63,369 nucleotides of DNA, filler included, from Candidatus Tectimicrobiota bacterium (GCA_016193065.1; 7 parts of 7 records of this genome joined end to end with filler, not necessarily neighbours in it), one strand, 5' to 3'; positions 10,092-57,965 are shown, counted from the whole stretch's first letter. Notes: generated by a model not told the origin, from the sequence alone. Made by a program: numbers and translations.

Positions 10092-10108
10092 AGGCCAAGG
10101 GAGCTCTC

Positions 10109-12076: not shown

Positions 12077-12137
12077 TAGAGATACCCGAGGGGGTCGCCC
12101 GCAAGGGGATGGCGGCAGCAAACGCAAGGAGAAGTGC

Positions 12138-26222: not shown

Positions 26223-26234
26223 AGGGAAAAGTTC

Positions 26235-27617: not shown

Positions 27618-27738
27618 AATGATCCCTTGCAAGAATTCGTTTCACTTTTGTTGTTCCTTCCTCTCCAAATTTCCTGAGCAACCTTCCGACCCTCAGACAC
27701 CCCAGCAAATATAAGGCATTGGCAGATTCCCTTCCCCG

Positions 27739-27754
27739 TGGCACGCAACCTGCA
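27739..27754 (+). promoter_or_regulatory. Sigma54 -24/-12 promoter of the molybdoenzyme operon
   Basis: TGGCAC-GCAAC-CTGCA with correct GG/GC spacing, 35 nt before ATG 27789 and next to a sigma54 activator gene. Confidence 0.8.
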
Positions 27755-27788
27755 CTTCTCTCCGGCAACACTCATAGAGGAAGGGCTC

Positions 27789-28220
27789 ATGAACGGATTG
27801 ATGGATCTCCTCGGGAAAAAGTTCTTCTCCAGGGGCAGCGGCGATACGGGAAGGCCGGAGGTCCGGCGCATCCTGCTCGTTCACAACGAGCAGGACCAGT
27901 GCGAGTCCCTCACGGACTTCCTGGAAGAGGAAGGCTACCGGGTCTCCCGCACCCGCCAGGGCCGCAAGGCCGTCTCCATGGTTCTCAACGGAGGAGTGGA
28001 CGCGGTCATCATCAAGGGGAAGCTGCTGGATCTTTCCGGATACGAAGTAGCTTCCATCGTGCGCCGGCTCGACCCCGAGATCCGTGTGATTCTCACTGTG
28101 GGCGACGAGTCGGAACTTTACGGTGGCGAAAGAGAGCAAGTGGATTTCTTCCCGTGCCTGCTCGAACCCTTCCAGCCGCGCCAGATTTTGCGGGCCCTGG
28201 AGGGGGGCGCACAGAAATAG
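27789..28220 (+). CDS. Single-domain atypical receiver protein
   Basis: Receiver-like pattern (ILLVHNE, DAVIIK, LSGYEV, EPF) with acidic pocket residues altered; GAGGA RBS. Confidence 0.8.
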   Translation: MNGLMDLLGKKFFSRGSGDTGRPEVRRILLVHNEQDQCESLTDFLEEEGYRVSRTRQGRKAVSMVLNGGVDAVIIKGKLLDLSGYEVASIVRRLDPEIRVILTVGDESELYGGEREQVDFFPCLLEPFQPRQILRALEGGAQK

Positions 28221-28229
28221 GAGCGGGCC

Positions 28230-28685
28230 ATGAATCGACGAGCACTGCGTCTGCAACTGAAAATCGGCGCCGTCGCCGGTGCCGCGGCCTTTCTCTTCGT
28301 GGGAGTTCCCTGGGGAATATTTTACGGGGGCTCCTTCGGCCTGCTCTCGGCGGTCAGCATCATGGGCTCCCCCTTGCCGGAGCGCAGCGTCGTCACCCTC
28401 TTCGTGATCGGCGGCATGGCCCTCGGCGTGGCCGCGGCCTGCCTCTTCTGGCTGGCCGTAGGCTCCCTGGTCGCGCTGGCCGTGGGAACCGTCACCAAGC
28501 ATCTCGTCAACAAATCCCTGGAGAGGATCGACTCGCGGGAAACTCTCGACTCTGCAGATTCCTCCGGGCCCACCCCCTTCATTATCGGGCTCAGGACTGT
28601 GCAGCACTTCTTTTCCTCTGAGGACACCCCAAGGGTTCAGAGTCCTGCGGAGACCATGAAAGGAGGAACCGGTGACCTGGCTTAA
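28230..28685 (+). CDS. Hypothetical membrane protein
   Basis: Two Gly-rich TM segments; AGGAG RBS; within the operon. Confidence 0.7.
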   Translation: MNRRALRLQLKIGAVAGAAAFLFVGVPWGIFYGGSFGLLSAVSIMGSPLPERSVVTLFVIGGMALGVAAACLFWLAVGSLVALAVGTVTKHLVNKSLERIDSRETLDSADSSGPTPFIIGLRTVQHFFSSEDTPRVQSPAETMKGGTGDLA

Positions 28686-28794
28686 ACTCTTCTTGATGTA
28701 CGGCGGAATCTTGTTTGCGGTGGCGCTGTTTGCCGCCTGGAGCTGGCACGCATCCGGCGGGCAGGGGAAGAACCTTTCTGAAAAAGGGAAGTAA
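28672..28794 (+). CDS. Small single-TM protein (40 aa)
   Basis: AAAGGAGG RBS, GTG start, MTWLKLFLMYGGILFAVALFAAWSWHASGGQGKNLSEKGK*; ends 2 nt before the next gene; below the ORF track cutoff. Confidence 0.65.
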   Translation: MTWLKLFLMYGGILFAVALFAAWSWHASGGQGKNLSEKGK

Positions 28795-28796
28795 TC

Positions 28797-29402
28797 GTGG
28801 AAGGTAACGGCTCCCGCAAGAAAGGCAAACGCTACGCCATGCTCATTGACTTGAGGCGCTGCCTGGGCTGCCACTCCTGCGCGGTGGCCTGCAAGAGTGA
28901 AAACGACGTTCCCCTGGGAGTCTACCGGACCTGGGTCAAGATCGTGGAGAAGGGGTCCTACCCCAACGTGCGCCGGGTCTTCGTCCCCAGCCTGTGCAAT
29001 AACTGCGAGCGCCCCGTGTGCCTGAGCGTGTGCCCGGTGAAAGCGACTTACCGCAGGCCTGACGGCATCGTCATGATCGACGAGCACCGCTGCATCGGCT
29101 GCAAGTACTGCATGGCCGCCTGCCCTTACGATGCCCGGCACGTGAACCCGATCAAGAAGATCGTGCAAAAGTGCTACTTCTGCTTCCACCGGGTGGACGC
29201 CGGGCTGGTTCCGGCCTGTGTGAACACCTGCCCCGGCGGGGCCCGCGTGTTCGGTGACGTGAACGACCCCGAAAGCGAGATCTCCCGCCTGATCGCCACG
29301 AACCCAGTCCAGGTCCTCAAGCCCGAGAAGGGGACCGAGCCCCGGGTCTACTACATCGGACTCGATGAGATGGCCGCCAAGGCAAAGGTAGAGGAAGCCT
29401 GA
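28797..29402 (+). CDS. Four-cluster Fe-S subunit (NrfC/PsrB/TtrB/DmsB family)
   Basis: CLGCHSCAVAC, CNNCERPVCLSVCP, CIGCKYCMAACP and KCYFC...PACVNTCP. Confidence 0.95.
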   Translation: MEGNGSRKKGKRYAMLIDLRRCLGCHSCAVACKSENDVPLGVYRTWVKIVEKGSYPNVRRVFVPSLCNNCERPVCLSVCPVKATYRRPDGIVMIDEHRCIGCKYCMAACPYDARHVNPIKKIVQKCYFCFHRVDAGLVPACVNTCPGGARVFGDVNDPESEISRLIATNPVQVLKPEKGTEPRVYYIGLDEMAAKAKVEEA

Positions 29403-31325: not shown

Positions 31326-33584
31326 ATGATTGATCGCAGAGGGTTTATCAAAGTTGGGGTCGGCGGGGCGGGAATGCTGGCCCTGGGGGAAATGCTCCCC
31401 CTGGCCAGCCTCGGCCAGGAGCTCAAGCCCGGGGGTGAGGGGGTCTCGCGCACCACGGGCAAGTCCCGGGTGGCTATCCCCAGCACCTGCTTTCAATGCG
31501 CGGCGGGCTGCGGCATCCTGGGCTATGTGGACACGAGCTCCGGGCGGCTGGTGAAAATCGAGGGAAACCCGTTGCACCCGAACAACCGGGGCAAGCTCTG
31601 CGCCCGGGGCCAGGCCGGCACCAATCTGGTCTCCAATCCGGACCGCCTCCTGTTCCCCCTCAAGCGCGCGGGCAAGCGCGGGGAGATGCGCTGGGAGCAG
31701 ATTTCCTGGGAGCAGGCAATTCAGGAGATCTCGACAAAGCTCCAGGATCTCAAGAAGAAAGGGCAGGCGGACCGCTTCATCCTGCAGGGAAATTTCAAGG
31801 CCAAGGAGAATGCCACGCTGAACTTCGTGCGGCGCTTCCTGCACGCCTACGGAGCATCTTCGGACACGTTGGAAACTTCCCTGGGAGGCGCCAGCCGGGA
31901 AACTGCCTCGCTCCTCACCTACGGTGAAGACGTGGTGATTCCCGACATCGGCCGCAGCAAGTACATCCTCAACTTTGGAGGCAATCCTTACGAGGCCTAC
32001 CTTTTTCATCTGCCCCTCATCCAGCGCCTCAACGAGGCTCGCCTGAACGGCGCCCGTCTGGTCACCTTCGACGTGCGCATCTCGAACACCTCGGGGCGCA
32101 GCGATGAGTGGTACCCGATCACTCCGGGCTCCGACAGCTTGGTGGCCATGGCCATGGCCCGCACGATCATCGAGGAAGGACTGCACGACCGGGAGTTTTT
32201 AGAAAAGTGGACCAATTTCCCCCTGGTCCATCTGCGCCGCCACCTGGAGCCTTACACACCTGAAGCCGCCGAAAAGGTCAGCGGAGTGCCGGCAGCGGTG
32301 ATCCGGCGGCTGGCCCGCGAGTTCGCCACCACCCGGCCGGCGGTGACGCTTACGGGACGCGGGGTTTCCATGCGGCAACAGGGAACACAGAACGAGCGCT
32401 GCATCGCGCTCTTAAACGCCGTGGTGGGCAACATCGACGTGCCCGGCGGCTCCTGTTTCCCCAGGCGGGCCGAGATCCCGGACCTTTCTCCAATGCCTTC
32501 CAAAACCGGCCGGACATCCCCCTTCCGCCACAACAACCTGTTCCCGGACATTGCCCGAGGGAAGATCAAGGTCGGAGTCTACGTGGCCTACACTGCCAAC
32601 CCCGTTTACGCCTCTCCCGACTCGGGGACCATTACCGAGATCCTCAAAAATGAGAGGCTCATTCCCTACTCGATCGCAGTGGACACGTTCATGAGCGAGA
32701 CCGCGATCCTGTGCGACCTGGTGCTGCCCGACGCCACCTACCTTGAGCGCTGGGATCTGGAATCAGGCCCCAGCTTCGAGCTGGTCCCGTACGTGAGTTT
32801 GCGCCAGCCCCTTGTCGCACCTCCTCCCAAGGTAAAGCCATTTACCGAGGTGTGCCTGGAGCTGGCGCGCCAGATTCCCGGGGTCGAGCCGTTTTTCCCC
32901 TACCGGAGTTTCGAGGACTACCTGGAGAAGGTGGTGCAGAGGATCGACGGCCTGGCCCGGGCCGGCGGGTTTGAAACCCTGAAGCAAAAAGGGGTGTGGT
33001 TTGACGAGAAGGCGAAACCCCGCTTCCGGCAGTACCGGGAAAAAGGGTTCAAGACCGCCTCGCGCCGCTTCGAAGTCTACTCCGAAGCCATGCACCGCCA
33101 GGGGTTCGCGGGCTTGCCCAGCTATGAGCCCGAAAAAAACGGGCGCACGAACGGCCGCCTCATGCTCGCCACCTTCAAGGGGAACGTGCGCGGGGGCTCG
33201 CGCACCGCGCCCTGTAAATGGCTCGCCGAGATCCAGCACGACAACCCCCTGTGGCTCCATCCCCAAACGGCCGCGGCGCTGAACGTGCGCGAGGGGGATC
33301 GGGTGCACCTGAAGACGGCGAACGGCACGGTGACCCAGAAGGTGCGCATCAGCCAGGGGGTTCACCCCCAAGTGGTCGCCTGCTCGGAAGGGTTCGGCCA
33401 CTGGGGACACGGCCGCATTGCCCGGGGCAAGCGCTTCAAGAGCAGCGACCCGGACACCCGTCTGGTCTGGTGGGAGGGGCACGGCAGCGGAGTGTATCTA
33501 AATGCCATCGTCCCTAAGAAAGAAGACCCGGTGAGCCAGGAATATGCCTGGATGGAAACCGAAGTCGAAGTAGCCAAAGTCTAG
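31326..33584 (+). CDS. Tat-exported molybdopterin oxidoreductase catalytic subunit (Psr/Ttr/Arr-like clade)
   Basis: DRRGFIK Tat motif; CFQCAAGC...KLCARG Fe-S motif; DTFMSETA..DLVLPDATYLER; C-terminal dinucleotide-binding domain. Confidence 0.93.
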   Translation: MIDRRGFIKVGVGGAGMLALGEMLPLASLGQELKPGGEGVSRTTGKSRVAIPSTCFQCAAGCGILGYVDTSSGRLVKIEGNPLHPNNRGKLCARGQAGTNLVSNPDRLLFPLKRAGKRGEMRWEQISWEQAIQEISTKLQDLKKKGQADRFILQGNFKAKENATLNFVRRFLHAYGASSDTLETSLGGASRETASLLTYGEDVVIPDIGRSKYILNFGGNPYEAYLFHLPLIQRLNEARLNGARLVTFDVRISNTSGRSDEWYPITPGSDSLVAMAMARTIIEEGLHDREFLEKWTNFPLVHLRRHLEPYTPEAAEKVSGVPAAVIRRLAREFATTRPAVTLTGRGVSMRQQGTQNERCIALLNAVVGNIDVPGGSCFPRRAEIPDLSPMPSKTGRTSPFRHNNLFPDIARGKIKVGVYVAYTANPVYASPDSGTITEILKNERLIPYSIAVDTFMSETAILCDLVLPDATYLERWDLESGPSFELVPYVSLRQPLVAPPPKVKPFTEVCLELARQIPGVEPFFPYRSFEDYLEKVVQRIDGLARAGGFETLKQKGVWFDEKAKPRFRQYREKGFKTASRRFEVYSEAMHRQGFAGLPSYEPEKNGRTNGRLMLATFKGNVRGGSRTAPCKWLAEIQHDNPLWLHPQTAAALNVREGDRVHLKTANGTVTQKVRISQGVHPQVVACSEGFGHWGHGRIARGKRFKSSDPDTRLVWWEGHGSGVYLNAIVPKKEDPVSQEYAWMETEVEVAKV

Positions 33585-33594
33585 GGAGAAAAAA

Positions 33595-34161
33595 ATGAAC
33601 CTTCACATCCCTCACCGCTGGCGCGGTCCTATCCTCCTGGGAGGAGTGGCCGCGGTGGTTTTCGGCATAGTCGGTACTCTGTCCCTGATCCGCTACTCCT
33701 CCGGCAACCCCAGCTTCTGCCTGACCTGCCACGGCCAGGGACCCACCGCGCTGGCCGTCTCCAACACGGGGCATACTGCCAAGATCCCCTGCATCGGCTG
33801 CCACGGCAAGGCCAAGTTCCCCATCGCCCAGGGCTTCCCCCAGAGCTTCTCAGCAGACCCCGCGGACGTGGATAAGAAGTGCCACAGTTGCCACAAAGAA
33901 GTGGGAGATGGCGAGCCCCGGGTCATGCGAGCAAATGTACAAGGGATCAACATCCCCCACAAGCTCCACGTGAGCGGCATGGGAGTCGCCTGCGTGCAGT
34001 GTCACGTGAACATCGCCCACGACGCCAAGGCCCAGCCCACGAACCGGCCTCCCATGGCGGTCTGTTCCAGTTGCCACAATGTCCAGGAAAAATGCGATAG
34101 CTGTCACCGCAAGGAGCCCACGGCCATGGCTCCGGCAGGCTCAGGCGGATCGGCGGGGTAG
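33595..34161 (+). CDS. Membrane-anchored hexaheme cytochrome c
   Basis: N-terminal TM helix; CLTCH, CIGCH, CHSCH, CVQCH, CSSCH and CDSCH. Confidence 0.92.
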   Translation: MNLHIPHRWRGPILLGGVAAVVFGIVGTLSLIRYSSGNPSFCLTCHGQGPTALAVSNTGHTAKIPCIGCHGKAKFPIAQGFPQSFSADPADVDKKCHSCHKEVGDGEPRVMRANVQGINIPHKLHVSGMGVACVQCHVNIAHDAKAQPTNRPPMAVCSSCHNVQEKCDSCHRKEPTAMAPAGSGGSAG

Positions 34162-34269
34162 CTGAACTTGGAGCCGTAGGCATCCGGGTGCCAACGATCA
34201 TTGCCCACGTTTTCCACTACCTACGCTGAACGGAAACAATCACCGTAGCATTAATCCGGACGAAGCCAT

Positions 34270-34329
34270 CGCGCCTTCGGCATCAACTGCACGGCTCCCG
34301 GCTGCGGCTGCTGCATGCCTTCGTTAAGC
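34270..34329 (-). other. Degenerate attC-like site
   Basis: Minus strand GCTTAAC (RYYYAAC) 14 nt after a stop codon, then GGCAT[G]CAGCAGC...GCAGTTGATGCC stem with an extra base; terminal GTTRRRY missing. Confidence 0.5.
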
Positions 34330-34342
34330 ACCCACAAGCGGT

Positions 34343-34612
34343 CTATAGACCGCTGGCGAAAGTTTTTGCGAGTTTTACGACCGCGCCACTGACCTTGCCG
34401 ATCTTCTCAATCAACTCCGCCTTCTTGGAGTTCTCATCTGCCGTGGAATTTACGATTCGCAGCAGTTCAACCAGCTCGTCCCTGTCGCTCTTTGTTGGAA
34501 ACAGGGCCTTGATTTCCGCGACCGTGAGACTCGTGTAGCTGGAGAGCTCCTCGCCAAATTCCGCCTTTGTCTCTTTACTAGCAAGTTCGCCGATCTTACT
34601 TTTCTTTGGCAT
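34343..34612 (-). CDS. Hypothetical protein (89 aa)
   Basis: GGAGG RBS; helical and charged; co-oriented with the upstream lipoprotein. Confidence 0.75.
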   Translation of the reverse strand: MPKKSKIGELASKETKAEFGEELSSYTSLTVAEIKALFPTKSDRDELVELLRIVNSTADENSKKAELIEKIGKVSGAVVKLAKTFASGL

Positions 34613-34640
34613 CGCATCCTCCCCAGATTTCTTGTGAAAT

Positions 34641-35258
34641 TCAATTGGAAAGTCCGGATATCTTCTCCTTCGCCTTTTCTATCGCTTTGTCGACCGCCTT
34701 TTCCACAGAGTCTAACGAGAGCCCGGGATTGACCGCATCAAGCAGGCGGCCAATAGCCTCCCGGTGAGCCGCGTCCAGCTTTTCAAGGCTGTTGATCCAT
34801 CCGCCAACTGCTTCATGAGCAGCGATTGCATGACGGTACTCGCGAGATATGGCGTCCCGCAGATCCTTTCGGATGTTTTCGATTGGTGCGATTTCAGTTT
34901 GGTACTCAGCCACAAGGTCGCTGTAGAGCAACTGGAAATCGCGGTTTTCATCGTAATCACGGCCATACGCGGCTTTGAACGCCACTCGCCAGTGTTTCAG
35001 GTACGCCGGACCGTAATTCTTGAAGAAGAATGACTCGAAGACCGATATCTTCTGATCCACATACGCATCCACCATAGCTGTGTGGGACTGCTGGAGCGAG
35101 TTAATGATTTCAAGCTCCTTCTTGTGCGTCTGGGCAATTTGCGGAGGCACAGAAGCACAGCCGCTCGATAGAGATAGGGCGAGGGCGAGGGTTACCCAGC
35201 GAAATCTCATTACACGCACTCCTGGTATCGGCCTGGATGCCTTACGTATTGTGTTCAT
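34641..35258 (-). CDS. Hypothetical lipoprotein
   Basis: Hydrophobic signal ending SSGC; true start may be GTG/ATG near 35210. Confidence 0.75.
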   Translation of the reverse strand: MNTIRKASRPIPGVRVMRFRWVTLALALSLSSGCASVPPQIAQTHKKELEIINSLQQSHTAMVDAYVDQKISVFESFFFKNYGPAYLKHWRVAFKAAYGRDYDENRDFQLLYSDLVAEYQTEIAPIENIRKDLRDAISREYRHAIAAHEAVGGWINSLEKLDAAHREAIGRLLDAVNPGLSLDSVEKAVDKAIEKAKEKISGLSN

Positions 35259-35427
35259 CTTCTACCTTTCCCTCCAGTGACCTGTAGTTTCTGCCACTCA
35301 TCTGAACGCCTAATCGGGATAGAGGAAAGCCTCGCGGCGGGCAGCCCTCGCCCTTCTCCTAGCCTTGGCTCCACGATTACCTGGTACGTGGACTTTCAAT
35401 CACTTCGCTAGTTCTGTGCCACGCTTG

Positions 35428-35486
35428 CCCACACGCTGGAATTCACCGGCCGCCTACAGGCGGTCCGTGGAATGACAGCTTAGGGT
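35428..35486 (-). other. Degenerate attC-like site
   Basis: Minus strand CCCTAAG-CTGTCATTCCACGGACCGCCTGTAGGCGGCCGGTGAATTCCAGC-GTGTGGG directly after a TGA; ~59-bp imperfect hairpin with two extra bases; both cores mutated. Confidence 0.6.
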
Positions 35487-35851
35487 CAGGTCTCCTTGGT
35501 TTCTTTTCCTAAAAGGTATCCAGCGATAGTACCCAGCAGGCCCATCACAGGAGCAATTTGCGTATCGGTGTAACCTGCGACAACGAGAAAGACAGCGACC
35601 ATCACTATGAGGATCGTCCCGAATATTCGGAGAACAGCCTCCGTATGCTTTCCGGCGCGAATCAAGTAGGTTGCGAGCAAAATTACAAGCAGGCCAAACA
35701 CCAAGACACTCGCACTGATTGTCATGGCGTCTGTAACGGACCACCATGATGACGCAGCAGTGCCAACCGGGGCGGGAGATGAAGATGTCGACAGGCCGTC
35801 GATTATTACATTCTTCTTCTGCAGTGCCAGGTTAATCTCCTCAAGTGTCAC
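35486..35851 (-). CDS. Hypothetical 3-TM membrane protein
   Basis: QIAPVMGLLGTIAGYLLGK C-terminus; translationally coupled to the upstream gene. Confidence 0.75.
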   Translation of the reverse strand: MTLEEINLALQKKNVIIDGLSTSSSPAPVGTAASSWWSVTDAMTISASVLVFGLLVILLATYLIRAGKHTEAVLRIFGTILIVMVAVFLVVAGYTDTQIAPVMGLLGTIAGYLLGKETKET

Positions 35852-36129
35852 TTTTGCCCCCCCTTAGCCTTCTTGAGATCAGCTTCCAAGAGCTTCACTT
35901 TCTCCTCAAGAAGAGCAATCTTCTCCTTCTGCGCTATTACCAAAGCGTTCAGGCGAGATATCTCGGCATCCACCTTTTGGTTTTGCTCACCAGGAAACTG
36001 CTTCTTATGCCCTCCAGGATCCGCGTCACTGAATCGGCCGGGCATCTGCTGAGCGCCAACTGATAAGGTGAAGAGAACGAGCGTTACAGCTATAAACGCA
36101 ATGCGAAGCACGGCAATCCTCCTTTCCAT
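35848..36129 (-). CDS. Hypothetical secreted coiled-coil protein
   Basis: MERRIAVLRIAFIAVTLVLFTLSVGA signal followed by heptad repeats. Confidence 0.65.
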   Translation of the reverse strand: MERRIAVLRIAFIAVTLVLFTLSVGAQQMPGRFSDADPGGHKKQFPGEQNQKVDAEISRLNALVIAQKEKIALLEEKVKLLEADLKKAKGGQK

Positions 36130-36443
36130 GGATAGGCTGCAGCCTTTTGCAGCCCTCACGCTAGGCCCCAGATACCACAACGGACGTTGACAGACAGATG
36201 CCGGGCCCGGCAACCGATCCTCCGGGCTGCGGAGCGCTCCCGGATCGGAGTTCAGGGCATACGGGCAGATCAACTGGGCCATCCCAGCTGCCCATCCAGC
36301 AGAAAGTGTTGGGCCGATGAAATTCAGGACTTCCGAAAACCGGCATACCCTTGCCCCCCTCCAGGGACAGGAAGCCTATCCGGAGAACCACCAAAGAAAT
36401 GACCTATGAGAATGCCGGATCTTACTTCGGGGTGGCGCGGGCG

Positions 36444-36719
36444 TCAAGGAAAAATTCCCGCCCCAACAGGAACTTGGAAGGCAAGCTGCTTTAGCAGGAA
36501 GTCCCGAGGTGGATCAAAGTCTCCTCTGACCAGCCGCTCCCAGAGGTCCGGAACCGGTTCCAGGCGATCCAACGGGAAGGTCTCCAGCTTTTGCCCGTCC
36601 AGACCTTCAAAGACCACATCCGCCCGATAGAGTCCTAAGGATTTCGCGACCCGGAGAACCTCTCCAACGCCGAGATCCGCCCGGCCGTAGATCCGAACCC
36701 GCTGGTTAACCCGGGGCAT
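36444..36719 (-). pseudogene. Truncated N-terminus resembling SNF2/RapA-like helicases
   Basis: QRVRIYGRADLGVGEV SH3/Tudor-like start; ORF ends abruptly after ~90 aa. Confidence 0.45.
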
Positions 36720-36759
36720 TATTGAGTTCACTATCTCTTCCAAAGTCTCTACGTTTCGA

Positions 36760-36933
36760 TTACTCGTTGGGACCACTCAGTGCGTCAAGAAAGGCGCGGG
36801 CTCGAATCACAGAGATGCCAGCAAATGTTCCCAGACCCAGAAGGTGGTGATCGCCAGAGACGATATACGTGGCTCCGGAGACCTGAGCCGTTTCAAGGAA
36901 TTTATCGATGTTGGTGTCCAGGACAACCTTCAC
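36760..36933 (-). pseudogene. PIN-family toxin with large internal deletion
   Basis: MKVVLDTNI joined directly to DKFLETA...YIVSGDHHLL: both PIN end motifs in only 57 aa; not in the ORF track. Confidence 0.8.
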
Positions 36934-37185
36934 TTAAGCGCCCGCGTGGAGAATTTCATCTACCAGTGCCTCGCGCTCTTCCTCCGTAAGTCGGGAAAAG
37001 TCCAGTCCTCGGTCGCGGCAGATGGTCTCAATCTTTTCCCGGTTTCGATCCACCAGACGGTCGAGCCTTTCCAGGCCGCCAATAAGCTTGGCGAGTGCGA
37101 GCCGTCTGGCCGCCGGAGAAAGCTGCTCCAGGGCAATCAGAATTTGCTCCTCGTTTACCTCAATCTTCGGCATTGTCTCCTCCAT
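36934..37185 (-). CDS. Putative antitoxin
   Basis: About 80 aa with an acidic C-terminus, abutting the PIN gene. Confidence 0.65.
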   Translation of the reverse strand: MEETMPKIEVNEEQILIALEQLSPAARRLALAKLIGGLERLDRLVDRNREKIETICRDRGLDFSRLTEEEREALVDEILHAGA

Positions 37186-37259
37186 ATCTCACCGAGGGCG
37201 CTTTGACCAAGCGCCTGGAGAATAAGTCAGAAGTCAATTTGCCCTCGTCAGGAATGAGC

Positions 37260-37448
37260 CTACGGATGTACCATCCAACTGATGAATCGTAACTGTATAT
37301 CCGGCTTGCCTGGCCCGATGCCGCTTGCCGCGCATTCCGCTTGCGAAATCATATTCGGCACGCATCCCGTTATCTTTCCTTCGGGCCGCGTTAGGCGGTA
37401 CTTTAGGAAGCGCCGGGCCTTGTGGATCAAGCCTTTCCGTTCAATCAT
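37260..37448 (-). pseudogene. Probable HEPN toxin, only N-terminus left
   Basis: ATGA-coupled to the MNT gene; MIERKGLIHKARRFLK resembles a HEPN first helix, then degenerates. Confidence 0.45.
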
Positions 37449-37801
37449 GCGGCCTTACCTTCCCGGCGCACGTTGCGCCAGAAAGGGCCGTCGCCGTTCT
37501 TGAAAGTCCGTTCATGTACGGGGAGAACCGACAGGAGCACTCCGTATCGCAGGTTAAAATCGGCCAGCAGGTCGGCAATCCGGTCAATCTCTTTTGAAGG
37601 CCGGATCTCCCCCCGCAGGATCAACAAAAGGTCAACGTCTGATTCATCGTGAGCCCGACCGCGGGCCTGGGAGCCATAAAACCAGAGGTTCACAAAGTTT
37701 CCCCCATATCGTTCTTTGAGTGCATGCGCAAGCTCCCGAAGAATCTCCTTGAGAGATGGCCGGCTACTCTTCACGTGCCTGGATCTTGCCACAACAAGCA
37801 T
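37445..37801 (-). CDS. Minimal nucleotidyltransferase (MNT antitoxin)
   Basis: YGSQARG...SDVDLL motif. Confidence 0.88.
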   Translation of the reverse strand: MLVVARSRHVKSSRPSLKEILRELAHALKERYGGNFVNLWFYGSQARGRAHDESDVDLLLILRGEIRPSKEIDRIADLLADFNLRYGVLLSVLPVHERTFKNGDGPFWRNVRREGKAA

Positions 37802-37898
37802 CCCCCCCTAGTGATGATCACTTCCCAACACGATTCCCGCAGCCGTCCGTTCCCACATTCCAACGAGGAACAATCTGCGAACATAATCCTTTGAAACA

Positions 37899-37927
37899 AC
37901 TCTATTTCCTTGTCCACGCAATGTCAA
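37899..37927 (-). promoter_or_regulatory. Sigma70-type promoter heading module 1
   Basis: Minus strand TTGACA-ttgcgtggacaaggaaa-TAGAGT (17-nt spacer). Confidence 0.75.
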
Positions 37928-37959
37928 GGCTGATTACCGCGGCCCTCTGCGGAGGAACT

Positions 37960-38067
37960 ATGTGCCGCCATTTCGGTGGTCACAACGTCCAGGAGAGCTG
38001 CAAGAAATGCCACCGCAAGGAGCCCACGGCCCTGGCCCCTGCGGCATCGGGCAGTTCGGCGGGATAA
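37960..38067 (+). CDS. Possible 35-aa CxxCH mini-ORF inside repeat B
   Basis: GGAGG RBS, then MCRHFGGHNVQESCKKCHRKEPTALAPAASGSSAG*. Confidence 0.4.
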   Translation: MCRHFGGHNVQESCKKCHRKEPTALAPAASGSSAG

Positions 38068-38151
38068 CGGGAAAGGAGATGATGCCCCGGGCTCGCCGCA
38101 GCCCGCCATCGGCTACAGGCCGAGGCCATGCAGCAAGGCAGACCTCCAGCG

Positions 38152-38352
38152 CTACCCGGCCTTCTTCTTCGCGATCAGTTCGCGGACTGCCGGTACCAGA
38201 TCCACCGGGACCTCCATGACCGTGTGCGTCGTGGCCTCGTAGGCCGCCTCATCTTCGGCCACAGCCTCCTCGTCGGTCTGGCTCTCGTAGTGCTCAAGGA
38301 CGCGGCGGACCCGCTCCTCATCCCAACCAGGGGAAAACTTCGACTGTTTCAT
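38152..38352 (-). CDS. Small acidic hypothetical protein (antitoxin-like)
   Basis: GAGGAG RBS; MKQSKFSPGWDEERVRRVLEHYESQTDEEAVAEDEAA. Confidence 0.75.
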   Translation of the reverse strand: MKQSKFSPGWDEERVRRVLEHYESQTDEEAVAEDEAAYEATTHTVMEVPVDLVPAVRELIAKKKAG

Positions 38353-38499
38353 CGCTTTCTCCTCGTCGCCGCCTCCGCCCGCGCAGCCAGCCCACTGTCG
38401 TCTCACGATCTCCCTGGTCTCACGCTGGTCGGCTGCAGGCATTTAGCCGGCCATCGCAGCGCGCCGACATTACTGGCTCTAAACCTCGCGAGTTGCTGA

Positions 38500-39402
38500 T
38501 CACGGGTAGGGCCCAAGGAATCGTTCTCCGTTGAAATGGATCATGTGGTCAGGCGCGTCCGCAACCCACACCTCAGTTTCCCACACAATCTCCCCCAGGT
38601 ACTTGAGCAGCCCACGACGATCGAGGAAGGCAGTCACGAAGACCAGCCCTGCTCTGCTGCCCGAGAAGAGGGACTTCAATTCTGACAACCGCTTTGGGTT
38701 CACCGGCCCGTGGCTCGTCACGGCCTCAACCACGACAAGCCAGTTCTTGTCCGTATAGCGCACCACGACGTCTGGCATCTTGCCGTGTTCCCGAACAACG
38801 ACACTCAGTGAGCGTAAGCCGTCCTCATCGAAGTAGGCCCACTTTTTCTTTGTGTCTCCCACATATAATGGCCTCGCGCTTGGTGTAAAGCGGGGGCAGA
38901 ACTCGTCGATGATTTGGCGGACAAGCGCATTCTGCCCACCGGGCGACAGATCAATCGTCACCCCAGCAGCGAGGACGAGAGGGATACGGCGCATGCTTCG
39001 GGCCTGGGCGTAGCGCTGGGCAAGCGTCCGAATGTCCACAAGGTAGCGCCTCAGCGCGGCAACCCATTTCGTAGTTCCGAAGGTCCGGATGACTGCGAGC
39101 GCATGTGGCTCGATCTGGTAGCAATAGTTCGGGCTGTTTGTGGGTCGGTCAGGCTCATCGGGATTCGCAACAACCAATCCTGCTTGTTCAAATTGATGGA
39201 GGGTAAACCGCCGAACGGTCTCGCGTGTGTTTGGTGCCCACTTCTTTCGGTAGTGCTTCGCTGCGAACTCCATAATGGGCGTTACTCCCATCATGGGATT
39301 TGCTGCCTCCGACCAAGCCTTCGTCGGTGTGAGATCGACGAGGGCCAGCAGAGTGAGGGCGGCGCGAGCGCAAACCCAGCGTGTCAACAACCACAGCGTC
39401 AA
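38500..39402 (-). CDS. BsuBI/PstI-family type II restriction endonuclease (true N-terminus missing)
   Basis: APNTRETVRRFTLHQF, LSPGGQN, HGKMPDVV, EAVTSHGP and WETEVW motifs. Confidence 0.92.
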   Translation of the reverse strand: MTLWLLTRWVCARAALTLLALVDLTPTKAWSEAANPMMGVTPIMEFAAKHYRKKWAPNTRETVRRFTLHQFEQAGLVVANPDEPDRPTNSPNYCYQIEPHALAVIRTFGTTKWVAALRRYLVDIRTLAQRYAQARSMRRIPLVLAAGVTIDLSPGGQNALVRQIIDEFCPRFTPSARPLYVGDTKKKWAYFDEDGLRSLSVVVREHGKMPDVVVRYTDKNWLVVVEAVTSHGPVNPKRLSELKSLFSGSRAGLVFVTAFLDRRGLLKYLGEIVWETEVWVADAPDHMIHFNGERFLGPYP

Positions 39403-40897
39403 GCGCGTCCTGGCTCGGGATGTTGCCCCGGAGCTTACGCCCCAGTTCGATCAAGGCGGCCCTTGTCGGATAGCGGAGGGAGCGAAGGTCGGCGGCGTTG
39501 ACTTGAGTATGGCCGTTGAACTGGCGGAAGTACATGTCGAGAGGCGAAGAATTCAGAAAGGCAGACAGGCCCCAAGCCAGCAACCGTTCAAGCGCTGCGC
39601 CATGCTCATGGAAGTAGTTGAGGTGATTCTCAAAGCCCACGGCTTCACAGGCAACAATGCGATCATCGAAAACAGCAGCCACGACTCGACGGCGCTCCTC
39701 CTTCGCGGAAAAGCGCTTGACGAGCACATATATTCCGGAAGGGACCGTAAGTGCTGCGCTGCTGCTGTTGTAAACGATGGCATTCGCTTTCTTGGTCGTC
39801 GGCTTCGGCCACTGGACGCCGCCGCCGTCGAAGTGGGTGGGATGGATGAGCGGAACGGTGTCCGCGCCGGGCTGTGAACGCAGCCAGCGACGAGCGCGAA
39901 AGTCCACAACGCGACCGGTACTCACCTCCAGCCCTAGATCGTCCAGCGTGCAGGGGAGTCTCTCCATGGCGTCGGCGACGGCTTGACCCTCGCGATCTAG
40001 GACGAGATGTATGAACGCTTGGGCATCACCAGGCCGGACAACACGTCGAAAGGGGACGGCTCGCTCTACGACATTCTGGTCCTCAGGGGTGCGGCTCCAG
40101 GAGATTCGAACGGTGCGTTCCTGACGGACCCCCTTGACGCCGTGAAGAATCACGTTTTCCTGAAGCACGTCGTCGTCACGGAAGGGGTCGTCCCGGGATT
40201 CGAAAACGTGAACCCTCCTCAGGTTGACGTTGCTCAGGAGGTGCCTACGAAACGGTCGAAAATACGGTCCGTTGCAGAAGCTTCTTGGCGTAATGGCGAC
40301 GAGCTCTCCCTCATCGTCCAAGAGCATGACGACGAGGGCAAGAAAGGCCGTGTAAAGGTTGCTCGTTTCTACGCTGACACGGCGGAGGAGTTGACGGGGG
40401 CGGGACTCAGCCCGAAACTTCTTGTACGGCGGATTGAGGATCGCCAGATCAAAGGCCAGAGACTCGGTGGGAAAGAGGCCCTTGTCGAGAGCGCAGACAG
40501 CCGCTTCGATGAAGTCCTCTGCTCGCACCTCCCATTTGCAGGCTATGCCAACCTCGGCACACGCCCGCTCGCAGGCTGCTAATGTCTGCCGGAGTGGCGG
40601 CAGGAGGTCCTGATCTATCTCAAATGCAGTCAGAGCGACCTCCTCGGGACGATGTGTGCGCGAGCATATTTCGGCCACCCAGGCTGCTGTCAGTGCTCCA
40701 GCTCCGGCGCCAGGATCAAGGAAACGAATGCGCTTACGTCGTGGATCGGCCAGGGAGGCCATGAAGCGGGCTGTCGTGGGAGGGGTGAAGAACTGCCCGA
40801 GGGTGCTTCGGCGCTTTGGATCGAGGGCGCGGCTAACTGCTCTCCTCGCCTTCTCAGCAGATACCAGTGGGTCCAACATGTTTGCCCCTGAATTCAC
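39370..40897 (-). CDS. N6-adenine DNA methyltransferase (BsuBI/PstI, Eco57I-like); stop lost at junction with REase
   Basis: LGQFFTP, LDPGAGAG, NPPY, PRSFCNGPYF and GHTQVNA motifs; the ORF runs on out of frame to 39188. Confidence 0.92.
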
Positions 40898-40959
40898 CGG
40901 GAGGTAGCCCCATCAGCCCACCAAGAGTATAGGACGAAAGCCCCGCCTCATCTGAAACA

Positions 40960-40988
40960 ACTCTATTTCCTTGCTTATTCAATGTCAA
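40960..40988 (-). promoter_or_regulatory. Sigma70-type promoter heading module 2 (RM)
   Basis: TTGACA-ttgaataagcaaggaaa-TAGAGT. Confidence 0.75.
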
Positions 40989-41020
40989 GGCTGATTACCG
41001 CGGCCTTCCTCGGAGGAACC

Positions 41021-41128
41021 ATGTGCCGCTATTTCGGTGGTCACAACGTCCAGGAGAACTGCGAGAAGTGCCACCGCAAGGAGCCCACGGCCATGGCCCC
41101 ATCGCCTCACGCCAAATCGGCGGGCTAA
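41021..41128 (+). CDS. Possible 35-aa CxxCH mini-ORF inside repeat C
   Basis: GGAGG RBS, then MCRYFGGHNVQENCEKCHRKEPTAMAPSPHAKSAG*. Confidence 0.4.
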   Translation: MCRYFGGHNVQENCEKCHRKEPTAMAPSPHAKSAG

Positions 41129-41201
41129 TCCCGAGTTACAAAATCGAATGCCGCCTTGAGACACGACCTGGTGCCGCTGGGGTGACCTCTCCTTCCCAAT
41201 C

Positions 41202-41531
41202 TCAACGGAGGACGATGGGCCGGGCTGCGATGTTCCCACGAATTTGGAGAGTGTTTCGGTAGAGCAGTCGTTGCCCCCAGTAAATCTCAAGGTAATATGG
41301 CTCTGGTCTCAACGGAACATTCGAAAAAAAATAGTGACCAGAGACATCGGTGAATGATGGTGAGCTTCGGCCAAGCACCGGGTGAACCAGAAAAACGGTC
41401 AAGCCGGGAATTCCCCGATTGGAACCGTTTAAGACATTGCCTTGGAGGGTTTCCGCCCACACTGGCTGGGGAATGATCAGAAGGGCAAAGAAGCTAACTC
41501 CGAGGATTGCGACCAGTATTACTTTTTTCAT
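41202..41531 (-). CDS. Secreted carboxypeptidase-regulatory-like (prealbumin fold) protein
   Basis: Signal peptide; LQGNVLN...GIPGLTV...TDVSGHYFFSNVP pattern. Confidence 0.75.
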   Translation of the reverse strand: MKKVILVAILGVSFFALLIIPQPVWAETLQGNVLNGSNRGIPGLTVFLVHPVLGRSSPSFTDVSGHYFFSNVPLRPEPYYLEIYWGQRLLYRNTLQIRGNIAARPIVLR

Positions 41532-41542
41532 GGTTCACTCTG

Positions 41543-42142
41543 TTAGAATTTCCCGCTCTGGTCCAGACCAGGCAGGTTGGCGGGCGCGGATTTAATATTT
41601 TCCGCCCTCTCGTTGGGCTTTTCCGCGACTTTGGTGCCACCGTGTATCTCGCCGAGTAAAACTACCCCCTTTCGCACGTCCTGCGTAAGGATTGTTTTGA
41701 TGATCTTGGGCGGATTGTAGCCGGGCATAACAATTTCGAAAATAATCTTGTCCACGTTTGGATAGATCACCTCCTCAATCACGCCTCCTGTCGACGGTGT
41801 GGTGTCCTTCAATTTGTTAGAAACAGAAATTGTGGCGGCTGTGGGATCATCGGTCAGCAACTTGCCCGAGACTTTCAAGGGTTGTACAGCAGAAGGTTTC
41901 GAAAAATAGAGTGCAATGGTGATGAAGGTCAATCCGATAACGAAAATACCCAAAGCTGGATAGCGCGTTGTTACGTTAATCATCTTCTTAAACTCTACCT
42001 TGATAGCTTCTTCAGGGTTGGACTCTTTGAGAGTAATCGTTCCTTTGTACAGTAGGATCATTCCTCCGACGACCATAAGCAAACCACTTATACCCCCAAA
42101 AACGATAATGAGATCGAATGCCGGCATTTTGAGCCCTCCCAA
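41543..42142 (-). CDS. Hypothetical membrane protein (2 TM plus beta-rich domain)
   Basis: Low-GC ORF of 199 aa; start may be ATG 42127. Confidence 0.7.
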   Translation of the reverse strand: MGGLKMPAFDLIIVFGGISGLLMVVGGMILLYKGTITLKESNPEEAIKVEFKKMINVTTRYPALGIFVIGLTFITIALYFSKPSAVQPLKVSGKLLTDDPTAATISVSNKLKDTTPSTGGVIEEVIYPNVDKIIFEIVMPGYNPPKIIKTILTQDVRKGVVLLGEIHGGTKVAEKPNERAENIKSAPANLPGLDQSGKF

Positions 42143-42513
42143 CGTCTACCAAATGACCCTTCTCACCAAGAACGAGGAATGGAATATATATTTACCTTTC
42201 GGATCGAGACCTGTCAAATATATCAGCCAGGTTGCACACCCCCTCTTATTAGAGCTGCTCGCACATTCGAAACCTGATATTACCCCCTTGGATCAGTCCC
42301 TTGGGAACAACCTAGGCTGCTACCAGGGGCGGGGTGCTCGTTGACTTCACTAACTGCCTCGGAGGGCCAGGGGATACCGGCTCCTTTTGGGGTGTGGGGC
42401 AAAAAACTAAAGGGCCTCAACCCCCAAAACTGCGATACCTTTCTCAGGTTACTTTTGCGCGCCTGTTTAGGTCCTACACTCCAAACAAAACCAACGCTTG
42501 AATACCAATCTAT

Positions 42514-42552
42514 TGAAGCAACTCTATTTCTTTAGCCGGCCAATGTCAAGGC
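42514..42552 (-). promoter_or_regulatory. Partial repeat copy D: sigma70-type promoter heading module 3
   Basis: TTGACA-ttggccggctaaagaaa-TAGAGT (42549-42521); matches only the first 39 bp of repeats B and C. Confidence 0.75.
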
Positions 42553-42863
42553 CAGGCAGTGATGATCACGAAGCCCTCGGGCTCGCCCCCAAAACAAAAT
42601 CTTTTATTTACAAGTAGACTGCAAGACCGGTAGAATAAAAAGTCAGTTTCCCATACAAGAACAGGCCAGGCCGGGATTGCACTTATCACCCTTAACCAAG
42701 AAGGGGACAAACCTAGTGCCACATTCCTCCCTGGCAAAGCTCCAGAGGCGAATTTCCTACCTGGCTCAAGGGTCGATGTGGGCCTTCGCATCCTGGAATG
42801 CTTCCTGGGGCCCGAAAGAGATTAAGAGAAAAGGAAAACGCTAACCCAACTCGTAGGAGACAA

Positions 42864-43991
42864 ATGATGCCAGGCGTGCAACCAATCCCCCTGACTGATG
42901 AGCTCGTGCGTGAGGCCCGCGCGATGATCGGAAAGGAAGTCTCCCGAGCCAAGCCCGGCAATCAATGGAACGAAGAGGCGAGCCGAGATGCCATCCGGCA
43001 TTATGCCCACGGCATTGGCGACGACAATCCACTCTGGTGCGATCCGGCCTACGGTAAGAAAAGCGCCTATGGCTGCACAATCGCCCCGCCCACGTTCCTG
43101 CACACGGTGGACACCACGATCGTAGCTCCCGGCCTGGGGGGCATCCAGCTCATCTTTGGAGGGACCGATTGGACTTTCCACGACACGGTGCGTGGCGGCG
43201 ATGGGATTACTCCCTGTGTAAAGATTGCCGACGTAGAGGAACATCACGGGAAAAAGGTTGGCCGCTTTCTTATCCAGGTGGGAGAAATCACCTATACACG
43301 ACAGGATGGAAAGCTCATGGCTCGTGCTCTGGGACGGACGCTGCGCATCCCCCGGGTGGGGGCCGAGGGCCAGATGCGCCATGAACAGCGCCGGCAGACC
43401 TACACCGAGGAGCAACTGGAAGCAATCCGCCAGGAAGTTCTGCAGGAGAAAAGGAGAGGGTCTCAAACTCGGTTCTGGGAGGCGGTAGAGGCGGGGGAAC
43501 TGCTGACTCCGGTTGTGAAAGGCCCCCTCAACCTGATCGACATGGTCTGTTACATGGCCGGACTCGGCTATCCTACCCCGTTCAAAGCTCTGGAGCGTTC
43601 CTACCTTGACCCTTACCAGGGCGACAAAATGTTCTATCGCAATGAGCGAGGGGATCTGATCAACGCCGCCGTCGGGCACCTGGACGAAAACGTGGCCAGG
43701 GAAATCATCGGCATGCCCGGGGCCTACGACGTGGGCCACCAGCGCATAAGCTGGATGGGCCACCTCCTGACGAACTGGATGGGGGACGAGGGGTTTCTCA
43801 AGCGCCTCCAGGTGAAGATCGAGAGGCCGAACCTCTTCGGGGATACGACCTGGTGTCGCGGACGGGTCACGGGCAAGCGCCAGGAGGGCGGTGAGTGCCT
43901 GGTCGACTGCGAGCTGTGGGCGGAAAACCAGCGCCAGGAAATTACCGTCACAGGAACGGCCACCGTCCGGCTGCGCAGTCGGGAAGTATAA
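42864..43991 (+). CDS. Double hot-dog MaoC/FAS1-like acyl dehydratase
   Basis: IRHYAHGIGDDNPLW, IAPPTF, second domain NWMGDEGFL...GDTTW; AGGAG RBS. Confidence 0.85.
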   Translation: MMPGVQPIPLTDELVREARAMIGKEVSRAKPGNQWNEEASRDAIRHYAHGIGDDNPLWCDPAYGKKSAYGCTIAPPTFLHTVDTTIVAPGLGGIQLIFGGTDWTFHDTVRGGDGITPCVKIADVEEHHGKKVGRFLIQVGEITYTRQDGKLMARALGRTLRIPRVGAEGQMRHEQRRQTYTEEQLEAIRQEVLQEKRRGSQTRFWEAVEAGELLTPVVKGPLNLIDMVCYMAGLGYPTPFKALERSYLDPYQGDKMFYRNERGDLINAAVGHLDENVAREIIGMPGAYDVGHQRISWMGHLLTNWMGDEGFLKRLQVKIERPNLFGDTTWCRGRVTGKRQEGGECLVDCELWAENQRQEITVTGTATVRLRSREV

Positions 43992-53994: not shown

Positions 53995-54055
53995 TGCCTA
54001 TCACCCCCTTTGAAATGAATTCCCCCGCCATCGGCGCATGGGAAGAGACACAGAA

Positions 54056-55975: not shown

Positions 55976-56045
55976 TGACTCCCAACTAGAACCCGGGAAA
56001 AAATAAGGGCCGAACAGCTCGACCCTCCCGGGAACTCTTTGAAAA

Positions 56046-56120
56046 TGGTAGGCACGGGCGGTTTCGAACCGCCGACCTCTTGCGCGTCAAGCAAGCGCTC
56101 TCCCCCTGAGCTACGTGCCT
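56046..56120 (-). tRNA. tRNA-Val(GAC)
   Basis: AGGCACGTAGCTCAGGGGGAGAGCGCTTGCTT-GAC-GCGCAAGAGGTCGGCGGTTCGAAACCGCCCGTGCCTACCA folds as a complete cloverleaf with CCA. Confidence 0.97.
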
Positions 56121-56617: not shown

Positions 56618-56638
56618 GGCGCGAGCAACTCCCCGGAT

Positions 56639-57880: not shown

Positions 57881-57965
57881 ATATCGCCCCCTTCCGCAAG
57901 CCAATCGAGCCCGGGTACCCGCCTGGCGGGTGTCCGACCCGCAGGAAAGACAGAATCGAACATCC

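What the first reader, a model, noticed from the sequence alone, without database searches (positions are those of the whole stretch)
34075..42552. Repeat-delimited, promoter-headed cargo array anchored in the 3' end of a cytochrome c gene: candidate undescribed gene-capture system
Seen: three cargo blocks (34162-37891, 38068-40952, 41129-42513) with all genes on the minus strand. Each block is bounded on the left by a version of the last 87 bp of the hexaheme cytochrome gene (34075-34161, 37981-38067, 41042-41128) and on the right by the same 39-bp motif (37892-37930, 40953-40991, 42514-42552). The two internal junctions are 176-bp colinear repeats, about 85% identical by hand alignment; the outer ends carry only the half-sites. 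Cargo is typical island content (PIN, MNT/HEPN, BsuBI/PstI RM, lipoproteins), and no recombinase is encoded in the array. Inference: small non-autonomous units integrate serially at an att site inside a protein-coding gene, each restoring the gene's 3' end and bringing its own promoter.
Basis: partly seen in the sequence, partly recalled or inferred. Interest (0 to 1): 0.88.

Follow-up and report, generated by a model that had tools for sequence, protein, structure and literature searches.

The report
Integrase-less gene cassettes stacked behind cytochrome gene
Three small blocks of foreign genes sit one behind the other at the end of a cytochrome gene, each joined by the same promoter-plus-gene-end repeat, which looks like a known process (serial integration at one attachment site) in an unusually minimal form and in a barely sampled groundwater bacterium.

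Summary
The repeat architecture is real at the stated coordinates and is not an assembly artefact. Contigs from three separate sequencing runs bridge the junctions.

Each internal junction (J, about 182 nt) has three parts:
- a conserved minus-strand sigma-70-like promoter, TTGACA-N17-TAGAGT;
- a 27-nt linker;
- a gap-free copy of the last 110 nt of the cytochrome gene.

A 21-nt core is near-identical in all five copies examined. Sequence to its left falls into two classes, gene and junction. The tail to its right differs in every copy but keeps frame, length and stop.

A relative at about 87% identity has only one cassette, and its terminal repeat breaks 3 nt after the core. Another allele of the cytochrome differs only in its last 7 residues.

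No recombinase was found in 56 window ORFs scanned. No circle, empty site or autonomous parent element was seen.

Best reading (confidence 0.5): Campbell-type serial integration at the core. This is the known tandem accretion of integrase-less, cis-mobilizable-like elements, here in a minimal promoter-bearing form.

"Undescribed system" is not supported. The PIN and HEPN labels were not confirmed. Earlier notes of this scan (unchecked) report similar integrase-less stacks on other DNA.

The parts
33595..34161 (+). Multihaem c-type cytochrome gene (188 aa), the anchor of the array. It lies downstream of a molybdopterin oxidoreductase gene (31326-33584).
   Evidence: Pfam Cytochrome_C7, Cytochrom_c3_2 and Paired_CXXCH_1. 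Orthologues at 71-88% identity in the protein database.
34052..34161 (+). R1: the live 3' end of the gene, homologous to R2 and R3. It contains the 21-nt core O at 34105-34125, which starts at the His codon of the last CxxCH motif, followed by a 36-nt tail.
   Evidence: Gap-free 110-nt alignment of five copies and segment identities. Core: 3 matches in the window against 0 expected.
34162..36760 (-). Cargo C1a: five or so small ORFs of unknown function, including a 205-aa lipoprotein-like protein (34641-35258). Absent from the relative L001, which has 173 unrelated nt here. GC 0.52-0.57.
36761..37884 (-). Cargo C1b, shared with relative L001 at about 91% identity. It holds MNT-type nucleotidyltransferase 37445-37801, a truncated partner ORF 37260-37448 and an 83-aa ORF 36934-37185.
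37885..37930 (-). P1: conserved promoter motif, TTGACA-N17-TAGAGT (hexamers 37927 to 37899), firing into C1.
   Evidence: 10 of 12 matches; the three P sites are the top-ranked rows of the scan.
37931..37957 (.). Linker of junction J1 (27 nt). It holds GGAGGA-N5-ATG upstream of the relic mini-ORF.
   Evidence: Sequence read. 24-26 of 27 positions identical among the three J copies.
37958..38067 (+). R2: relic copy of the cytochrome 3' end, with core at 38011-38031. It encodes an open 35-aa frame that ends at the same stop position as the gene.
38068..40945 (-). Cargo C2: type II restriction-modification pair, with methylase 39188-40897 and BsuBI/PstI-family endonuclease within 38500-39402, plus a 96-aa ORF 38152-38442.
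   Evidence: Pfam. PADLOC MTase_II 8e-164 and REase_II 1e-119.
40946..41128 (.). Junction J2: P2 (promoter hexamers 40988 to 40960, minus strand), linker 40992-41018, and R3 41019-41128 with core at 41072-41092.
41129..42506 (-). Cargo C3: 199-aa protein with hydrophobic stretches (41543-42142) and a 109-aa protein with a signal-like N-terminus and a sub-threshold CarboxypepD_reg match (41202-41531). GC about 0.51.
42507..42552 (-). P3: terminal promoter motif (hexamers 42549 to 42521) with no linker or gene-end copy after it.
   Evidence: linker columns only 5-6 of 27 identical.
42553..42595 (.). 43 nt unique to the window between P3 and the conserved right flank. It holds the 12-mer AGTGATGATCAC, which also lies between P1 and the MNT start (37810).

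Best explanation
The locus is a fossil or slow-moving accretion array. Small circular units, each consisting of cargo plus an attP-like junction of about 180 nt, entered one after another by Campbell-type recombination.

The exchange point is a 21-nt core (CACCGCAAGGAGCCCACGGCC) that starts at the last haem-motif histidine codon of the cytochrome gene. Each entry has three effects:
- it gives the gene a new in-frame 12-residue tail and stop;
- it leaves a relic gene end behind;
- it brings a sigma-70-type promoter that reads into the unit's own cargo.

The recombinase, most likely a tyrosine integrase, is encoded elsewhere or has been lost, so the units are cis-mobilizable-like. The right end of the array has since been eroded by deletion, and other cargo turnover (C1a) occurs without the repeat.

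Shown here: the anatomy, the core, the promoter motif, allele differences located at the core or tail, and the physical reality of the array. Inferred: the circular intermediate, the enzyme, the order of entry, and promoter activity.
For: - **Segment pattern.** The core is 18-21 of 21 identical in all five copies. To its left, junction copies are 47-48/53 identical to each other but 29-36/53 to gene copies. To its right, every pair is 21-25/36 identical. All copies are gap-free, in frame, and stop at the same position, and homology ends at the stop codon.
- **Junction conservation.** 125 of 147 junction positions are invariant in three copies. The junction is about the size of a tyrosine-integrase attP (size comparison recalled).
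- **Half-sites.** Internal junctions are complete while the outer ends carry half-sites, as in attL-(attP-like)n-attR.
- **One-cassette relative.** L001 has about 87% flank identity and only one cassette. Its terminal repeat loses homology 3 nt after the core.
- **Tail-only allele difference.** P0007 and P0005 differ at 4 residues, all within the last 7 of 190 (P about 7e-7 if placed at random).
- **Foreign composition.** GC of C1 and C3 is 0.51-0.57 against 0.61-0.63 in the flanks.
- **Promoters.** The three promoter motifs are the top-ranked sigma-70-like sites in 9.5 kb.
- **Physical reality.** The array is bridged by separate contigs in runs X1, X3 and X4, at a depth like the flanks.
[quoted passage not shown] 15 Dehalococcoides ssrA islands without an integration module (PMC3146451, passages).
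Against: - **No recombinase.** None was found in 56 window ORFs scanned or by tblastn with the relative's two recombinases.
- **The relative's genome.** It has only an XerD-type gene and one phage-type integrase on a short contig, no resolvase-family gene, and no extra core copy.
- **No parent element.** No J-like site was found in 99 other genomes, viral contigs, plasmids or phages.
- **No mobility signal.** No circle, excision or empty-site joint appeared in the contigs of four runs. Contigs drop rare forms, so this is weak.
- **Right end does not fit.** It has P3 but no linker, core or gene end, so an extra deletion must be assumed. The relative's right end needs another.
- **Not recent.** The junctions differ by about 12% (130/147).
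- **HR could suffice.** Cytochrome alleles are block mosaics that pass the four-gamete test, so homologous recombination alone could explain the tail swap.
- **Thin sampling.** Only two array alleles could be read.
Confidence: 0.5

Rival explanations
1. Homologous recombination only. The cytochrome 3' end and the promoter motif act as portable homology. Cassettes loop out and re-enter by RecA-dependent crossover between the 110-180-nt repeats or are imported from other strains, and no site-specific enzyme is involved.
For: Cytochrome alleles are block mosaics with all four combinations of two blocks, so recombination inside the gene is frequent. The junction copies share identical runs of 24-26 nt. 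No recombinase was found anywhere.
Against: It does not explain how the first promoter-linker-gene-end joint arose. Nor does it explain why all three junction copies share exactly the same left boundary of gene homology. Conservation changes sharply at the right edge of a 21-nt core rather than fading, and the relative's breakpoint lies 3 nt from that edge.
Confidence: 0.2
2. A dedicated cassette platform. The units are born integrase-less, each consisting of a promoter-bearing attP-like module plus any cargo. A single recombinase encoded elsewhere in the genome captures and shuffles them, as in an integron but with a different site type.
For: Three unrelated cargos share the same module of about 147 nt, and its conserved part stops near the transcription start on one side and at the core on the other. 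The units are only 1.4-3.9 kb. Unchecked earlier notes of this scan report similar integrase-less stacks at tRNA genes and behind msrA.
Against: No recombinase candidate is linked to the site. The junction does not fold as a hairpin (z from -1.1 to +0.7) and no integron integrase was found. Only two alleles are known and no movement was observed. Junction copies are 12% diverged, so any activity is old or rare.
Confidence: 0.15
3. Old tandem duplication of the segment from the gene's 3' end to the promoter. The junction is the duplication joint, and cargo inside each copy was later replaced.
For: It would explain why the left end has only the gene end and the right end only the promoter, with no recombinase needed.
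Against: The 27-nt linker shows no significant similarity to the sequence right of P3 or left of R1 (p 0.12-0.98 in 2000 shuffles). Three unrelated cargos would each have to be replaced exactly between the stop codon and the promoter. The relative has one cassette followed by a complete junction.
Confidence: 0.08
4. Assembly artefact: strain alleles of one variable locus were placed in tandem by the assembler.
For: The window comes from a metagenome that holds more than one strain. A minor variant is seen at 34047-34092.
Against: Contigs assembled separately from three runs bridge J1: X1 34105-38242, X3 37510-38244 and X4 37293-38221. X4 40364-42034 bridges J2, and X1 and X3 contigs cross the P3 end. 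Depth of the array is close to the flanks, 24 against 30 in X1. The relative L001 independently has cargo-junction-flank.
Confidence: 0.02

Closest known systems
Cis-mobilizable elements (CIMEs) and tandem accretion with ICEs/IMEs (Streptococcus ICESt1 family; review PMC5704250, passages read; the Pavlovic 2004 title was seen in its reference list only)
   Same: Elements without integration or transfer genes that keep attL and attR. [quoted passage not shown] Integration into the 3' end of protein genes restores the gene.
   Different: No related autonomous element or integrase is known here. The units are far smaller (1.4-3.9 kb). Each carries the same consensus promoter in the conserved att arm. 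There is no evidence of a conjugative helper, and mobility was not observed.
Dehalococcoides ssrA genomic islands (PMC3146451, passages read)
   Same: Groundwater bacteria with multiple tandem islands bounded by direct repeats of a gene's 3' end. 15 of the islands lack an integration module and were proposed to be cis-mobilizable.
   Different: There the target is the tmRNA gene, the repeat is 20 bp, and many islands carry a serine-recombinase module. Here the target is a protein gene, the repeat is 110-180 nt, and no recombinase was found.
Tycheposons of Prochlorococcus (bioRxiv 10.1101/2020.12.28.424599, passages read)
   Same: Successive integrations at one site push older elements further into an island. 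Partial copies of the target gene separate the elements, and degraded remnants remain.
   Different: Tycheposons target tRNA genes and are defined by their own integrase and replication genes. None of these is present here.
Integron cassette arrays (features recalled, not taken from a paper read here)
   Same: An ordered stack of small cassettes joined by a repeated recombination site at one genomic platform, with the recombinase not inside the cassettes.
   Different: There is no IntI gene or attI. The junction does not fold as an attC-like hairpin. The cassettes carry their own promoter, and the anchor lies inside a protein-coding gene.

Membership tests
CIME / tandem accretion array | [quoted passage not shown] | tested here: met
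   R1, R2 and R3 are gap-free 110-nt homologues with a shared 21-nt core, and the gene is open to its stop.
CIME / tandem accretion array | No integration or transfer genes inside the units | tested here: met
   No recombinase, relaxase or transfer domain in any cargo ORF scanned.
CIME / tandem accretion array | Derived from, or mobilised by, a related autonomous element with an integrase of the same site specificity | tested here: inconclusive
   None was found in the window, in the relative's genome, in 99 other genomes, or in viral contigs, plasmids and phages. The lineage is the sole genome of its phylum in the collection, so absence is weak evidence.
CIME / tandem accretion array | Excision or circularisation at the att repeats | tested here: inconclusive
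   No joint between repeats in the contigs of four runs. Contigs drop rare forms, and raw reads were not available.
Integron | attC sites that fold as imperfect hairpins in single-stranded DNA | tested here: not met
   DNA folds of both strands of the junction gave z from -1.1 to +0.7 against shuffles.
Integron | intI integrase gene with attI and Pc next to the array | tested here: not met
   No tyrosine recombinase in 56 window ORFs scanned, nor by tblastn.
IMEX (Xer-dependent elements at dif) | A 28-nt dif-like site with two inverted 11-nt arms at each junction | tested here: inconclusive
   Read by eye against a recalled proteobacterial consensus, no such site is seen. Only two 6-nt inverted pairs are conserved in J. 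The dif site of this phylum is unknown. The relative does encode an XerD-type enzyme.
tRNA/tmRNA-anchored island | Target is a tRNA or tmRNA gene | tested here: not met
   The only tRNA in the window is at 56046-56120. No Rfam match in 33000-43500.

The most novel reading that the evidence does not exclude
The junction is the cis-acting module of a cassette system, not a scar. In this reading a promoter-bearing attP-like unit of about 147 nt, joined to any cargo, forms a minimal mobile cassette. A recombinase encoded elsewhere inserts it at a 21-nt core inside the last haem-motif codon of a cytochrome gene, and each entry rewrites the protein's C-terminal tail. This would be an integron-like capture platform of a different site type and with self-expressed cassettes. 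It may be one instance of the integrase-less stacks that this scan has noted at tRNA genes and msrA.
Probability: 0.15. Interest if true: 0.75.

Novelty: new variant of a known kind. Interest (0 to 1): 0.45.

Why it matters
If the reading holds, gene-end accretion arrays exist in a phylum known from a single genome. It would also show that they can be reduced to cargo plus an attachment module of about 180 nt that carries its own promoter. That form is close to an integron cassette in logic but not in mechanism.

The locus gives a defined 21-nt candidate crossover site and a defined promoter, both testable in vitro. It also shows a respiratory cytochrome whose C-terminal tail is rewritten by each insertion.

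If the cassettes are only relics, the locus is an ordinary decaying island hotspot.

Tried and rejected
- **attC-like hairpin.** Rejected: fold z from -1.1 to +0.7.
- **tRNA, tmRNA or known RNA as the target.** None near the array.
- **Duplication-joint origin of the linker.** No significant similarity.
- **Junction-like sequence elsewhere.**
  - One expected copy in the relative's genome.
  - Of 100 genomes searched (the relative's own plus 99 others), only two chance-level hits of 27-28 nt outside it.
  - Nothing in viral contigs with two patterns, in plasmids or in phages.
  - Nothing among earlier scan windows by sequence.
- **More loci.**
  - The genome-collection scan with the oxidoreductase gave one close locus, L001, out of 50.
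  - The metagenome scan with the cytochrome gave 3 loci: two are L001-type and one is unrelated at 22% identity.
  - A phylum-wide search reached only one genome.
- **Spurious ORF through the junction as a protein query.** 0 hits.
- **Runs.** No RNA holder was listed. In the contigs laid there was no joint between repeats, no circle and no empty site. The joints listed lie inside the restriction-modification genes at high depth and probably come from other organisms. Depth dips are not interpreted.
- **Recombinases.** None in the window. No resolvase-family gene in the relative's incomplete genome.
- **Not available or failed.**
  - No whole genome is held for the window.
  - One literature search timed out.
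  - Supplementary files of the papers were not consulted.


Full report
**Observation**

- The two internal junctions, J1 (37885-38067) and J2 (40946-41128), are colinear repeats of 176-181 nt at 85% identity.
- The left end carries only the gene-end part and the right end only the 39-46-nt motif.
- The motif occurs three times in 63 kb against 0 expected.
- A 21-nt core inside the gene-end part also occurs three times against 0 expected.

**Anatomy of the junction**

Read on the minus strand, the motif is TTGACA-N17-TAGAGT. The three copies are the top-ranked rows of the sigma-70-like scan of 33.5-43 kb, at 10 of 12 matches each. One plus-strand site outside the array, at 42607, scores the same. 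Each copy points into the cargo to its left.

A 27-nt linker follows, which contains GGAGGA-N5-ATG. After it comes a copy of the last 110 nt of the cytochrome gene. That copy aligns without any gap to the live gene end, and all copies keep the frame and stop at the same position. Homology ends at the stop codon on one side and near the predicted transcription start on the other.

Five gene-end copies were compared, three from the window and two from a relative. They split into three segments:
- **Left of the core (53 nt).** The three junction copies are 47-48/53 identical to each other but only 29-36/53 identical to the two live genes.
- **Core (21 nt), CACCGCAAGGAGCCCACGGCC.** It matches at 18-21/21 between all copies.
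- **Tail (36 nt).** Every pair is only 21-25/36 identical.

Over the 147 nt from the promoter to the core, 125 positions are invariant in the three junction copies. The junction does not fold as a hairpin and matches no Rfam family.

**Cargo**
- **C2** is a type II restriction-modification pair.
- **C1b** holds an MNT-type nucleotidyltransferase and a decayed partner ORF with no family hit.
- **C1a** holds small ORFs of unknown function, one of them lipoprotein-like.
- **C3** encodes a 199-aa protein with hydrophobic stretches and a 109-aa protein with a signal-like N-terminus and a sub-threshold CarboxypepD_reg match.
- No PIN domain was found.
- GC of C1 and C3 is 0.51-0.57 against 0.61-0.63 in the flanks.

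**Context**

The window is ordinary chromosome, with nuo, pdh-like, pheST, infC, tig and clpP genes. 56 window ORFs were scanned against Pfam. Of the 60 ORFs of at least 90 aa listed, 14 were not scanned. All of these are at most 228 aa except one antisense ORF.

The only mobile-element gene found is an IS630-type transposase at 21491-22447. No tyrosine or serine recombinase was found.

**Is the array real?**

Four runs of one groundwater study hold the locus. Contigs assembled separately per run cover the critical joins:
- J1 is bridged in three runs: X1 34105-38242, X3 37510-38244 and X4 37293-38221.
- J2 is bridged in X4 (40364-42034).
- The P3 end is crossed in X1 and X3.
- Depth of the array is close to the flanks.

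The best holder may be the source sample, but X3 and X4 are separate runs. The mis-assembly rival is therefore rejected. No joint between repeats was listed, so excision, circles and empty sites were not seen. Contigs cannot show rare forms.

**Other alleles**

The lineage is barely sampled: the one related genome is the only member of its phylum in the collection. That relative, L001, is colinear through the cytochrome gene at about 87% identity. Past the gene it has, in order:
- 173 unrelated nt;
- only C1b, at about 91% identity;
- one complete promoter-linker-gene-end junction, 137/147 identical to J1;
- the conserved right flank.

L001 lacks C1a, C2 and C3. Its terminal gene-end copy loses homology 3 nt after the core. 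Two metagenome contigs are of the same type.

The protein database holds ten cytochrome alleles. P0007 equals P0005 except for 4 of its last 7 residues, which is a swapped tail. The same alleles are block mosaics with all four combinations of two internal blocks, so homologous recombination is active in this population. Relic tails 2 and 3 were not seen as live gene ends among these ten.

**Mechanism**

The pattern matches what Campbell-type integration at a core predicts. Internal junctions are complete, outer ends are half-sites, a short segment is shared by all copies, sequence on one side is class-specific, and sequence on the other is copy-specific. The anatomy corresponds to attL, attP-like internal sites and attR.

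Each unit would be a tail plus cargo plus promoter, linker and left arm. It restores the gene and expresses itself.

This is the published accretion scheme for integrase-less elements (PMC5704250, passages; PMC3146451, passages). Tycheposon islands show the same stacking (bioRxiv 10.1101/2020.12.28.424599, passages).

Four things do not fit cleanly:
- the right end of the window has the promoter but no linker, core or gene end;
- the relative's right end is also truncated;
- C1a differs between alleles without any repeat at its inner edge;
- the junction copies differ by about 12%, so the events are not recent.

Erosion by deletion is plausible, because the window has also lost an IclR-type gene that the relative keeps. 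It is nevertheless an added assumption.

No recombinase, parent element or extra core copy was found.

**Verdict**

The feature is real and well defined. The best reading, at confidence 0.5, is a gene-end accretion array of minimal, promoter-bearing, integrase-less cassettes. That makes it a new variant of a known kind rather than an undescribed system.

Homologous recombination alone (0.2) and a dedicated cassette platform (0.15) remain open.

Earlier notes of this scan describe similar integrase-less stacks at tRNA genes and behind msrA. They are unchecked and count only as leads.

Noticed in passing
window 42821-42845 vs L001 11912-12832: The relative has an intact IclR-family regulator gene (306 aa) just right of the array. 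The window keeps only its first 180 nt or so and has lost about 740 nt.
   Followed up: partly
window 37810-37821 and 42558-42569: The near-palindromic 12-mer AGTGATGATCAC occurs exactly twice in the window. One copy lies between P1 and the MNT start and the other lies 6 nt outside P3. Expected 0.14 even with one mismatch allowed. It may be an operator or a relic, and is unexplained.
   Followed up: partly
window 37260-37448 vs L001 10791-11201: The ORF downstream of MNT is 62 aa in the window and 136 aa in the relative. Only about the first 15 residues are shared, and neither has a family or PDB hit. The toxin partner looks decayed in both.
   Followed up: partly
window 21491-22447 (-): IS630-type transposase (HTH plus DDE_3). 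Next to it is a low-GC stretch at 23-24 kb (GC 0.48), and colinearity with the relative's contig starts at 24242.
   Followed up: no
L001 9557-10129 (G001:C276:4112-4666): The relative's cytochrome gene carries one in-frame TAG and is annotated as a 117-aa fragment. This is either a pseudogene or an assembly error.
   Followed up: no
proteins P0001, P0005-P0009: Cytochrome alleles are block mosaics (blocks 25-59, 107/114, 147-176, 184-190) with all four combinations of the first two blocks. This shows frequent homologous recombination in the population.
   Followed up: yes
window 38376-40700: Contig depth over the restriction-modification genes is several-fold above the rest of the locus, up to 150-200, with many internal joints. 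Homologous genes of other organisms in the same samples are the likely cause.
   Followed up: no
window 1-63369: Cumulative GC skew rises to a maximum near 21-22 kb and falls afterwards. A replication terminus may lie about 10 kb left of the array, but no dif site was identified.
   Followed up: no
window 9806-12304, 24978-26888, 27693-29189, 54038-55978, 56501-58000: Several large ORFs (498-832 aa) have no Pfam family at E <= 0.001.
   Followed up: no
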